Positions 60,680-61,972 of a DNA stretch of 64,000 nucleotides are shown in pieces; positions within the stretch are counted from its first letter, which is position 1; the number at the start of each line of letters is the position of its first letter. Below the pieces are notes generated by a model. It did no database searches, was not told the origin of the DNA, and saw only the letters and a program-made list of their open reading frames with translations. Source of the stretch: the human T2T-CHM13v2.0 reference genome, Homo sapiens; assembly GCF_009914755.1 (NCBI RefSeq), contig NC_060941.1; one strand, written 5' to 3'. The translations under genes and the position numbers were made by a program.

Positions 60680-61078
60680 GCATGTGCTTTCTTACAGTAC
60701 AATTTGTTAGTGTGGCACAGAGCATGTTTACTAACAGTCTCAGATAGTTTTAGTCTCTCTGTAATAAGAAATTTTTTGTAGAGGAGGCAAAAGTCTGTCT
60801 CTATCCTCTTAGTTTTTTTTTTTCTAGGCCTGAGAATTAAATTGTTGTTTGTATAGACTTTCCTCAGTGTCAACTTTCCATTCTTGATAAGAATGTTAGA
60901 AACTTTTAGTGTAGGGAGAACCTCTTTCACCTGGGAAGTGTAACTTACTTACATCTATTTAACTCACTTGTTGTTTCTTTTTAATAATTATGCTTGGATT
61001 TCTCATAAATATGAGACATTAAACAGCTAGACATCATCTTATGTTTTTTTTCTTGCTGATAAATGTTGTAATATAGAA

Positions 61079-61410
61079 GGCCGGGCACGGTGGCTCACAC
61101 CTGTAATCCCAGCACTTTGGGAGTCCAAGACGGGCGGATCACGAGGTCGGGAGATCGAGACCATCCTGGCTAACAAGGTGAAACCCCGTCTCTACTAAAA
61201 ATACAAAAAATTAGCCAGGCATGGTCGCGGGCGCCTGTAGTCCCAGCTACTCTGGAGGCTGAGGCAGAAGAATGGCGTGAACCCGGGAGGCGGAGTTTGC
61301 AGTGAGCCGAGATCGAGCCACTGCACTCCAGCCTGGGCGACAAAGCGAGACTCCGTCTCAAAAAAAAAAAAAAAAACAAAAACAACAGCAACAACAACAA
61401 CAACAAAACA
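61079..61410 (+). mobile_element. AluY with A17 plus (CAA)n tail
   Basis: gagatcgagaccatcctggctaaca, gaatggcgtgaacccgggagg; the second TSD copy is displaced to 61561. Confidence 0.97.
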
Positions 61411-61559
61411 GAAATGTTCATTGCAGTAGTACTCATGATAAAGTGATAAACATCAGTGAGGGAATAGCTAACAATACCACAGTATATTCATTTGATAATT
61501 ACCACTGTAGGCTAATAAAAGGAAATTGAGAAGAATTTAACACAAAACATTAAAAAAAA
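61411..61559 (+). other. Candidate 3'-transduced segment carried by the AluY
   Basis: Lies between the Alu tail and the second TSD copy; contains aataaa (61514-61519) and ends in tt + A8. Confidence 0.75.
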
Positions 61560-61972
61560 GTGTAATATAGAGATAACAGAAGCTTATTTCCAGCAAACCT
61601 AATTAAAAAGTTGTGTGTTTGTGTTGTATTTAATGGTGATGACTCTGAAGATAAGCCTGTTATAATAAAACTAACAATATTCTTATTTACCAAAAATTAC
61701 CCAAGTCGAATGAACTTGAAAGCATCTGGGCTAGTTCTTATTTTTCCAAGAGAATACTTAATTTATATAAGCACTTAATTTTCTTTAAGCCAAATAAATA
61801 GGGCTCTTTTACAATTTAATTTTGATGATATCATAAGGAGATAGAAAAATATCACATATATATTATACATACAGACAAACATATAAACAGAAACATATCT
61901 TATAGTTTTCATTCTAAAATTTTAGCCATGTGCCAGTACAAAAAAACAAGCACTTTGAATGCCTGGACTCAG

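What the first reader, a model, noticed from the sequence alone, without database searches (positions are those of the whole stretch)
61067..61571. AluY with an apparent 3' transduction and a signature of Pol III read-through plus polyadenylation
Seen: the 11-mer tgtaatataga lies just before the Alu head (61067-61077). It does not recur after the Alu tail but about 150 nt later (61561-61571), after a second A8 run. The intervening 61411-61551 does not look like Alu sequence, has no TTTT run on the sense strand, contains aataaa about 32 nt before its end, and stops at 'tt' before the A run. Known: Alu has no internal terminator, so Pol III runs on to the first T4 or longer run; reverse transcription normally primes in the Alu's own A tail and drops the flank, which makes Alu 3' transductions rare compared with L1 and SVA; AAUAAA-dependent polyadenylation of Pol III transcripts is described for rodent B2-type SINEs. 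Inference: a source AluY transcript ran to a downstream terminator, was polyadenylated and was retrotransposed whole, so the segment tags its source Alu.
Basis: partly seen in the sequence, partly recalled or inferred. Interest (0 to 1): 0.8.

Follow-up and report, generated by a model that had tools for sequence, protein, structure and literature searches.

The report
Alu carrying a traceable 142-base passenger
A young Alu repeat and a 142-base copy of a single-copy sequence from 48 million bases away on chromosome 17 lie inside one target-site duplication; the copy ends where its source has a run of six T, but this assembly shows no Alu at the source, so a true Alu 3' transduction stays unproven.

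Summary
An exact 11-mer (61067-77, 61561-71) brackets a block of full-length Alu, 50-nt A-rich tail, 142 non-Alu bases and A8. The flanks belong to an interspersed repeat. At 8 paralogous loci the two flanks overlap by 11-12 nt, as one copy of the 11-mer requires; 4 were read directly. So the block is an insertion.

The 142 nt have one other copy in this genome, chr17:62,447,682-823 (7 of 142 bases differ). No Alu precedes it there: the nearest same-strand Alu is 6.7 kb upstream. The defining feature of a transduction is therefore not met in this assembly.

Three readings remain:
- (A, about 0.4) Pol III read-through from a source Alu allele that was later lost, followed by polyadenylation.
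- (B, about 0.25) A template-switch chimera of Alu RNA with the 3' end of a Pol II transcript.
- (C, about 0.22) A separate short retrocopy nested at the end of the Alu tail.

The end falling exactly in the first T run, and the obscure single-copy source, favour A. The missing source Alu counts against it. Orthologous loci in apes, monkeys and human pangenomes would decide. Interest is moderate.

The parts
61067..61077 (+). 5' copy of the target-site duplication (TGTAATATAGA); possibly 13 nt starting at 61065
   Evidence: Exact 11-mer. It is present once at the matching place in paralogues L007, L008, L012 and L013.
61078..61078 (+). One extra base (a) between the duplication and the Alu head
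   Evidence: The 3' copy is followed by g (61572), as in 3 of the 4 exact paralogues.
61079..61359 (+). Full-length dimeric Alu body, 281 nt, young type
   Evidence: Two Metazoa_SRP-like halves on the + strand. It has 19 CpG, the most among 43 full-length Alus in 104 kb. It differs at 16 of 281 columns from the majority of 7 other young Alus.
61360..61409 (+). Alu A-rich tail: A17, then an A-rich stretch with interspersed C and a CAA-type repeat; 50 nt
61410..61551 (+). 142-nt copy of chr17:62,447,682-62,447,823 (+), ending in TT
   Evidence: 95% identity; 7 mismatches in 142, no gaps. It is the only other copy in the assembly. No TTTT inside. No Rfam family.
61514..61519 (+). AATAAA hexamer, 32 nt before the end of the segment; conserved in the source
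61552..61559 (+). A8 run that is absent from the source (which has TTTT there) and from the empty-site paralogues: remnant of a poly(A) tail
61560..61560 (+). Single g between A8 and the 3' duplication copy: either part of a 13-nt duplication or a mutated tail base
61561..61571 (+). 3' copy of the target-site duplication

Best explanation
Shown. Window 61078-61560 is retrotransposed DNA sitting inside one 11-bp (perhaps 13-bp) target-site duplication in an old interspersed repeat. It consists of a full-length young Alu with its A-rich tail, followed directly by a 142-nt copy of a single-copy sequence from chr17:62,447,682-823, followed by a short A run that the source lacks.

Inferred, and the most likely single route (about 0.4). 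An Alu allele once sat immediately 5' of chr17:62,447,682. RNA polymerase III started in that Alu and ran through its A tail and 142 nt of flank. It stopped in the first T run, the T6 at the source, leaving two U. That transcript carries AAUAAA 32 nt from its end. It received a poly(A) tail, as Pol III transcripts of T+ SINEs such as B2 do in transfected human cells. L1 reverse transcriptase primed on the terminal poly(A) rather than on the internal Alu tail and copied the whole RNA to Alu base 1. The source Alu allele never became fixed, or was lost, and is absent from T2T-CHM13.

I do not file this as a confirmed Alu 3' transduction, because the defining source Alu was looked for and not found. 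The claim is that it works like one.
For: - One insertion block within one duplication, with empty-site paralogues.
- Two A stretches and a unique mapped passenger. This is the anatomy given for 3' transductions in PMC4859970 (passages read).
- The copy stops 2 nt into a T6 run at the source. That run is the first T4 or longer on the + strand after the segment's start; indeed there is none from L002 1177 to 1640.
- In the 40 kb around the source, T6-or-longer runs occur 1.85 per kb and T4-or-longer runs 9.9 per kb. A random end therefore falls in the first 3 nt of a T4+ run about 3% of the time, and of a T6+ run about 0.6%.
- AATAAA lies upstream at a distance seen for 3.8% of positions and for 12 of 396 T4 runs.
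- A shortened terminator followed by poly(A) is what the T+ SINE model predicts for copies, and such polyadenylation works in HeLa cells (PMC8466645, passages).
- The passenger comes from a single-copy sequence (2 of 2 candidates were self and window). It is no known RNA family. It lies about 11.6 kb from the nearest ORF I could recognise, on the opposite strand. Hitch-hiking on an Alu explains why such a sequence was retrotransposed at all.
- Ages are compatible. The segment differs at 7 of 142 bases, which gives about 12-25 My under assumed rates. The Alu is the least CpG-decayed of 43.
- A source-based screen would miss this locus. Halabian et al. accepted only sources lying downstream of a reference full-length AluY (10.1101/2024.04.29.591526, text parts 1-2 of 3 read).
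Against: - The defining feature fails in the only genome available. No Alu lies 5' of the source segment. The nearest + strand Alus are 6.7, 14.8 and 18.1 kb upstream and their tails do not match. The reading therefore needs an unobservable lost allele.
- There are no sibling copies.
- The junction at the source (GCAG|AGAAG on the top strand) is not a good L1 endonuclease site. My reading of the sequence gives TTCT/CT on the bottom strand, without the usual pyrimidine/purine step. This is weak evidence, because the junction can be shifted by a few bases.
- Alu RNA is stated not to be enzymatically polyadenylated (PMC3415434, passages).
- 0 of 118,489 full-length AluY gave a confirmed transduction in this same assembly.
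- The 32-nt distance from AATAAA to the end is long.
- Only 2 of the 6 T are kept.
- The Alu has somewhat more non-CpG private changes (10-11 of about 233 sites) than the segment's per-lineage share (about 3.5 of 142). That pattern also fits an older Alu.
Confidence: 0.4

Rival explanations
1. Template-switch (or RNA-ligation) chimera. L1 reverse transcriptase primed on the poly(A) tail of an ordinary Pol II transcript of the chr17:62.45-Mb locus. That transcript had been cleaved and polyadenylated after AAUAAA, just in front of a U-rich downstream element. The enzyme copied its last 142 nt, then jumped to the A tail of an unrelated Alu RNA and copied that to its 5' end. This is one integration event with one duplication, and no Alu is needed at the source.
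For: - It meets the published features of chimeric retrocopies: a full-length 5' part, a 5'-truncated 3' part, the same orientation, a direct join and flanking direct repeats (PMC2104539, passage).
- 452 Alu/LINE-1 chimeras with a sense, mostly full-length Alu at the 5' side are catalogued (PMC13174262, passages).
- It explains directly why no Alu lies at the source.
- AATAAA, then a C-A step 30 nt further on, then TTTTTTATGTG reads like a canonical poly(A) site with its downstream element (my reading).
Against: - It needs a polyadenylated germline transcript from a single-copy sequence for which I have no evidence. No annotation of that locus was available.
- Known 3' partners are mostly LINE 3' ends or abundant RNAs. 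Here no L1 likeness was detectable, and the locus is absent from the chr17 rows of Table S4, which jump from 12.77 to 27.25 Mb.
- The end lying 2 nt inside the first T6 run is then a coincidence. Its background is about 0.6-3%; I guess about 10% near real poly(A) sites.
- Cleavage would have occurred after U rather than after the C-A step 2 nt earlier.
Confidence: 0.25
2. Two separate events. An ordinary Alu inserted first and made the 11-13-bp duplication. Later a short, 5'-truncated, 142-nt retrocopy of a polyadenylated chr17:62.45-Mb transcript inserted in the same orientation into the last few bases of the Alu's A tail. Its own duplication would consist only of A's, so it cannot be seen.
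For: - A tails are T-rich on the opposite strand and are favoured L1 endonuclease targets (recalled). PMC8466645 notes head-to-tail SINE pairs that may arise this way (passage).
- Top-strand AAC|AAAAC at 61402-61409 gives TTTT/G on the bottom strand, a good nick site (my reading).
- AAAAC (61405-61409) against AAAAG (61556-61560) could be a 5-nt duplication with one change.
- The Alu has rather more non-CpG private changes than the segment's share, which fits an older Alu.
- No Alu is needed at the source.
Against: - It needs a duplication of 5 nt or less, or one made only of A's, whereas the median in T2T AluY is 11. It also needs a hit within the last 8 nt or so of a 50-nt tail, leaving only A8 for poly(A) plus duplication.
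- It shares with the chimera reading the unexplained obscure source and the coincidence of the end with the first T6 run.
- The g at 61560 is equally well explained as part of a 13-nt outer duplication, because it is shared with 61065 while all 4 exact paralogues have T there.
- CpG loss in the Alu (about 8 of about 24, my count) fits the segment's age.
Confidence: 0.22
3. Other routes: an orphan L1 3' transduction (an L1 read-through RNA truncated so far that only the flank is left) landing beside the Alu; a DNA-level templated insertion during break repair within the Alu tail; or a chance repeat with no insertion.
For: A 5'-truncated L1-like ORF lies 12.3 kb upstream of the source on the + strand (the name is recalled from the peptide). 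The source and the target are on the same chromosome.
Against: - No reverse-transcriptase or endonuclease Pfam domain was found in the three + strand frames of the 14 kb upstream of the source. The control is weak: the L1-like ORF itself gave 0 families.
- AATAAA occurs 1.4 times per kb on that strand, so 11.5 kb of read-through is implausible.
- A DNA-level capture would make AATAAA, the T6 boundary and the A8 all coincidences.
- Chance is excluded by the empty-site paralogues.
Confidence: 0.06

Closest known systems
L1 and SVA 3' transduction (read-through past the element's own signal to a downstream poly(A) site; PMC4859970, passages)
   Same: Element plus internal A stretch, plus a unique flank traceable to another locus, plus a terminal A run, all within one target-site duplication.
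   Different: The carrier would be a Pol III-transcribed Alu. The stop would be a T-run terminator rather than Pol II cleavage alone. The source element is not present in the assembly.
Reported Alu-linked transductions: AluSx3-WaluSat and '386 high-confidence Alu 3' transductions' in CHM13 (10.1101/2021.07.12.451456, passages); an Alu-monomer case cited by Halabian et al.; an MSH2 AluJ with 99 extra nt, 'may be transduction or recombination'
   Same: An Alu followed by non-Alu sequence inside a duplication, in the same genome assembly.
   Different: Those calls rest on a parent locus that carries the element; this one has none. The Pol III-aware re-screen confirmed 0 of 118,489 full-length AluY. 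Whether this locus appears in either paper's lists could not be checked, because bioRxiv supplements are closed.
Chimeric retrocopies by template switching, and Alu/LINE-1 chimeric insertions (PMC2104539; PMC13174262)
   Same: A full-length sense Alu at the 5' side, a 5'-truncated poly(A)-ended partner at the 3' side, and a common duplication.
   Different: The partner is not a LINE-1 3' end or an abundant RNA but 142 nt of a single-copy sequence. The locus is not in Table S4.
T+ SINEs (B2, Dip, Ves): AAUAAA-dependent polyadenylation of Pol III transcripts ending at a terminator (PMC8466645, passages)
   Same: AATAAA upstream of a T-run terminator. The copy shows a shortened terminator (TT of T6) followed by A's.
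   Different: In T+ SINEs the signals are part of the element and lie close together, with extra beta and tau signals. Here they would be accidental features of the flank, 32 nt apart, and Alu is classed as a T- SINE.

Membership tests
Alu 3' transduction | Element plus extra sequence bounded by one target-site duplication, with a terminal A run | tested here: met
   Exact 11-mer at both ends. At 8 paralogous loci the flank alignments overlap by 11-12 nt (coordinates); 4 of the 7 read directly carry the 11-mer once. A8 is absent from the source and from the paralogues.
Alu 3' transduction | The extra sequence maps to one other locus, in the same orientation as the element | tested here: met
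   chr17:62,447,682-823 (+), 95% identity. It is the only other copy: 2 of 2 candidates.
Alu 3' transduction | At that locus an Alu of the same kind lies directly 5' of the sequence | tested here: not met
   Unique sequence precedes it. Among 21 Alu hits in 40 kb, the nearest + strand Alu upstream is 6.7 kb away. Only one haplotype of one species could be examined.
Alu 3' transduction | A Pol III terminator (T4 or longer) directly after the sequence at the source, and none inside it | tested here: met
   T6 at the boundary and no TTTT in the 142 nt of either copy.
Alu 3' transduction | The passenger begins with the source element's own 3' duplication, at an L1 endonuclease-type site | tested here: inconclusive
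   The junction GCAG|AGAAG is purine-rich after the nick but lacks the pyrimidine/purine step. The boundary is ambiguous by a few bases (my reading).
Template-switch chimeric retrocopy (features in PMC2104539) | The 5' part is a full-length RNA copy; both parts are directly joined in one orientation; direct repeats flank the whole | tested here: met
   The Alu starts at its first base (61079), one base after the duplication. The tail abuts the segment. The 11-mer repeats flank the block.
Template-switch chimeric retrocopy (features in PMC2104539) | The 3' part is the 5'-truncated 3' end of a real polyadenylated cellular RNA | not testable with these tools
   No transcript or poly(A)-site data were available for chr17:62.45 Mb. 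The sequence has AATAAA and a U-rich stretch.
Alu/LINE-1 chimeric insertion (PMC13174262) | The 3' partner is a LINE-1 3' end | tested here: not met
   - Pfam: 0 families.
- PDB sequences: only chance hits at E>1.
- Own-genome protein search: self and window only.
- BLASTP against a local L1-like ORF: nothing at E<=100.
- DNA local alignment: score 15 against a shuffle mean of 12.4, maximum 19.
- The locus is not in the chr17 rows of Table S4.
- Caveat: Pfam also missed the local L1-like ORF.
T+ SINE-type polyadenylation of a Pol III transcript | AATAAA upstream of the terminator; copies show a shortened terminator plus an A tail | tested here: met
   AATAAA at 61514-19. T6 at the source becomes TT + A8 in the copy. 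The expectation comes from PMC8466645.
T+ SINE-type polyadenylation of a Pol III transcript | Accessory beta and tau signals; polyadenylated Pol III RNA demonstrated | not testable with these tools
   This needs transfection and Northern or 3'-RACE experiments.
Independent nested retrocopy | Its own target-site duplication flanking the 142 nt + A run | tested here: inconclusive
   Nothing beyond A's was found. The best candidate is AAAAC (61405-09) against AAAAG (61556-60), 4 of 5 matching. An A-only duplication cannot be seen.

The most novel reading that the evidence does not exclude
This is a genuine Alu 3' transduction made by a route not documented for primate Alu. A Pol III read-through transcript ended at a T6 terminator and was then polyadenylated, helped by a fortuitous AAUAAA in the flank. 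This is a T+-SINE-like pathway acting on a T- SINE. The whole RNA was then retrotransposed from the terminal poly(A). The passenger marks the position of a source Alu allele that was active about 12-25 My ago and then lost. If so, screens that require a reference source element systematically miss such events.
Probability: 0.38. Interest if true: 0.65.

Novelty: new member of a known kind. Interest (0 to 1): 0.5.

Why it matters
Source Alus are very hard to identify because ordinary Alu copies carry no flank. PMC3412727 states that they never present transductions.

The two genome-wide screens of this same assembly disagree. One reports 386 high-confidence Alu 3' transductions. The other confirms 0 of 118,489 AluY.

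This locus is a clean test case. The duplication is validated by empty-site paralogues, the passenger is unique and traceable, and a Pol III-type end lies at the source. One comparative look at the two orthologous loci would settle it. If an Alu turns up at the source in another primate or haplotype, that would show three things: polyadenylated Pol III read-through RNAs of Alu can be retrotransposed, lost source alleles leave tags, and source-dependent pipelines undercount.

If no such Alu turns up, the locus is one more Alu-plus-retrocopy composite. It would then be a caution that a T run at a source is not proof of Pol III.

Tried and rejected
1. L1 origin of the passenger. From memory the source region looked like a decayed L1 ORF2 C-terminus. 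No tool supported this.
- Pfam gave 0 families in 3 frames.
- PDB sequences gave only chance hits at E>1.
- A protein search of the own genome found only the source itself and the window.
- BLASTP against a local L1-like ORF found nothing.
- A DNA local alignment scored 15, against a shuffle mean of 12.4 (sd 1.45, maximum 19) and 14 for the reverse complement.
- Pfam also failed on the local L1-like ORF, so that blank is weak evidence.
I dropped the idea.

2. Cis-splicing from an upstream Alu. The source boundary follows CAG, but the 4 + strand Alus within 20 kb upstream have different tails, and the tract before the boundary is pyrimidine-poor. Rejected.

3. Orphan L1 3' transduction. No RT or EN domain was found on the + strand in the 14 kb upstream. 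Unsupported.

4. Known small RNA. There are no Rfam hits in the segment or in its source.

5. Host repeat as an ERV. No Pfam domain was found in 12 frames.

6. Dating the Alu against the segment to separate one event from two. The Alu has 10-11 non-CpG private changes in about 233 sites. The segment has 7 of 142 shared between two lineages. The difference is not significant, and CpG loss fits equal ages. Inconclusive.

8. Buzdin et al. 2003 (NAR) is not held. Its content is cited only through PMC2104539.

9. The supplements of both bioRxiv papers, which hold the candidate lists, are closed. I could not check whether this locus is among the 633 candidates or the 386 events.
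Full report
**Observation.**

Window 61067-61077 and 61561-61571 carry the same exact 11-mer, TGTAATATAGA. Between the two copies lie, in order:
- one extra a (61078);
- a full-length dimeric Alu body on the + strand (61079-61359). Rfam gives two sub-threshold Metazoa_SRP halves at 61080-61194 and 61214-61361;
- a 50-nt A-rich tail (61360-61409);
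- 142 nt that are not Alu (61410-61551);
- A8 (61552-61559);
- a single g (61560).

The 142 nt hold no TTTT. They hold AATAAA at 61514-61519, 32 nt before the last templated base, and they end in TT.

**Is the repeat a real target-site duplication?**

From base composition, an exact second copy within 600 nt is expected 4e-4 times.

The stronger evidence comes from the flanks. Windows 60690-61078 and 61561-61960 belong to an interspersed repeat, with 45 and 41 matches in the genome at 67-90% identity, self-match included. By my reading of the coordinates in those two tables, at 8 loci both flank alignments reach the junction and overlap by 11 nt (6 loci) or 12 nt (2 loci).

I read 7 paralogues directly:
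- 4 (L007, L008, L012, L013) carry the 11-mer once, with the two flanks abutting;
- 2 show small offsets;
- 1 is uninformative.

These serve as empty sites. The whole of 61078-61560 is therefore inserted DNA.

All 4 exact paralogues have T at the two positions before the 11-mer. The window has g at 61065, two bases before the 5' copy, and g at 61560, directly before the 3' copy. The duplication may thus be 13 nt with a 1-nt deletion.

I could not name the host repeat.

**Where the 142 nt come from.**

A search of the window's own assembly gave exactly one other place: chr17:62,447,682-62,447,823 on the + strand, at 95% identity (2 of 2 candidates). A 951-nt query centred on that place again found only itself and window 61410-61551. 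A translated search found the same two places.

The alignment has 142 columns, 7 mismatches (three of them adjacent) and no gaps. The Jukes-Cantor distance is 0.051. With assumed neutral rates of 1.0-2.2e-9 per site per year (recalled), that corresponds to about 12-25 My.

At the source the sequence is embedded in single-copy DNA. It is preceded by ...CAAGTTTGCAG and followed by TTTTATGTGAC.... The source therefore has T6 where the copy keeps TT and then has A8. AATAAA is conserved in both copies.

On the + strand of the source there is no TTTT from L002 1177 to 1640. The T6 is thus the first terminator-like run after the segment's start.

Neither copy matches an Rfam family.

**What is not there.**

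No Alu lies 5' of the source segment. In the 40 kb around it there are 21 Alu hits. The nearest is 1.5 kb upstream on the minus strand. The nearest on the + strand are 6.7, 14.8 and 18.1 kb upstream, and their tails differ from the window's tail.

**Background rates (40 kb around the source).**
- T4-or-longer runs occur 9.9 per kb and T6-or-longer runs 1.85 per kb. A random 3' end falls in the first 3 nt of a T4+ run about 3% of the time, and of a T6+ run about 0.6%.
- 28.8% of random starts have 140 nt or more before the first T4.
- AATAAA starts 16-45 nt upstream of 3.8% of positions, and of 12 of 396 T4 runs.

**Mechanisms.**

Three readings fit the anatomy.

*(A) Pol III read-through.* An Alu allele once sat at the source. 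Its Pol III transcript ran through the tail and 142 nt of flank to the T6. It was trimmed to UU and polyadenylated with the help of AAUAAA. It was then reverse-transcribed whole from the terminal poly(A).
- This explains the exact stop in the first T run, the hexamer, the two A stretches, the full-length Alu head, and why an obscure single-copy sequence was mobilised at all.
- The T+ SINE literature shows that AAUAAA-dependent polyadenylation of Pol III transcripts works in transfected HeLa cells. It also shows that copies should carry shortened terminators (PMC8466645, passages).
- The cost is an unobservable step, the loss of the source allele. My own population-genetic estimate (inference, not computed) is that 10-40% of the activity of a non-master Alu comes from alleles that are later lost.

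*(B) Template switch or RNA ligation.* A Pol II transcript of the locus was cleaved after AAUAAA in front of the U-rich stretch and served as first template. The enzyme then jumped to an Alu RNA.
- The anatomy meets the published criteria for chimeric retrocopies (PMC2104539).
- It resembles the 452 Alu/LINE-1 chimeras of PMC13174262. However, the 3' partner here is not LINE-1 by any test, and the locus is not in the chr17 rows of their Table S4.

*(C) Nested events.* A short retrocopy of the same Pol II transcript inserted later into the end of the Alu's A tail, making an A-only duplication.
- The tail offers a good nick site, and AAAAC against AAAAG could be a 5-nt duplication.
- It needs an unusually short duplication and a hit in the last few bases of a 50-nt tail.

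B and C share two unexplained features: the coincidence of the end with the T6, and the need for a germline poly(A) RNA from a sequence with no known gene. The only ORF I recognised nearby has a NAC domain. It lies 11.6 kb away on the other strand.

**Relative ages.**

The Alu has the most CpGs (19) of the 43 full-length Alus in the 104 kb examined. Against the majority of 7 other young Alus it differs at 16 of 281 columns: 5 CpG transitions and 11 others, one of which is probably decay in the comparison set. The non-CpG rate, about 4%, is somewhat above the segment's per-lineage share of about 2.5%, but not significantly so. CpG loss fits equal ages. This does not separate one event from two.

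**Weighing.**

The end inside the first T run, with U rather than the nearby C-A as the last base, favours a Pol III end. I estimate the factor at 10-30-fold; this is an estimate, not a computation. The absent source Alu counts against A by perhaps 3-10-fold. The base rate of Alu transduction is low or disputed:
- 'never' in PMC3412727;
- 0 confirmed of 118,489 AluY, in a screen that accepted only sources lying behind a reference AluY (10.1101/2024.04.29.591526);
- 386 'high-confidence' events in 10.1101/2021.07.12.451456.

I put A at about 0.4, B at about 0.25, C at about 0.22 and other routes at about 0.06. The rest is left unassigned.

**Membership.**

The locus cannot be filed as a confirmed Alu 3' transduction, because the source Alu was tested for and not found in this assembly. 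It meets every other structural criterion. It meets the structural criteria of a chimeric retrocopy, except that the existence of the partner RNA is untested. It is not an Alu/LINE-1 chimera.

**Novelty and verdict.**

This is a real, well-bounded composite retrocopy with an identified source. It is a new example of a known kind, with a moderate chance of being the first well-documented AluY-type transduction through a polyadenylated Pol III read-through RNA.

Inspecting the two orthologous loci in other primates and in human pangenomes would decide.

Interest 0.5.

Noticed in passing
window 61968-62417: About 450 nt of pyrimidine-only microsatellite (TTCC/CTTT/CCCT-type units), 400 nt downstream of the insertion. 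It interrupts the host repeat. It is masked in NCBI's file according to the hub note.
   Followed up: no
window 60690-61078 and 61561-61960, with L004-L014: The host of the insertion is an AT-rich interspersed repeat with at least 40 copies at 67-82% identity. No Pfam domain was found in the neighbouring 58900-60359 or 62400-64000.
   Followed up: partly
G000 C17:62459447-62460037 (- strand; L020 1747-2337): An intronless 196-aa ORF with a NAC domain (Pfam E=1.3e-18), 11.6 kb from the source segment. It is probably the NACA2 retrogene (name recalled, not tested).
   Followed up: partly
G000 C17:62434952-62435350 (+ strand; L017 7252-7650): A 132-aa ORF that reads like the C-terminal part of L1 ORF2 (recalled). 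Pfam returned 0 families for it. Pfam blanks therefore say little about this part of L1.
   Followed up: partly
window 61212-61263 (+) and 61280-61339 (-); L002 92-143 (-) and 20-79 (+): Sub-threshold Rfam hits to mir-1268 and mir-3135 inside Alu bodies. These are Alu-derived miRNA families matching ordinary Alu sequence, not separate genes.
   Followed up: no
window 60398-60678 (- strand): An older Alu (83% identity to the studied one, 6 CpG) sits 400 nt upstream in the opposite orientation. With the studied Alu it forms an inverted pair about 400 nt apart.
   Followed up: no
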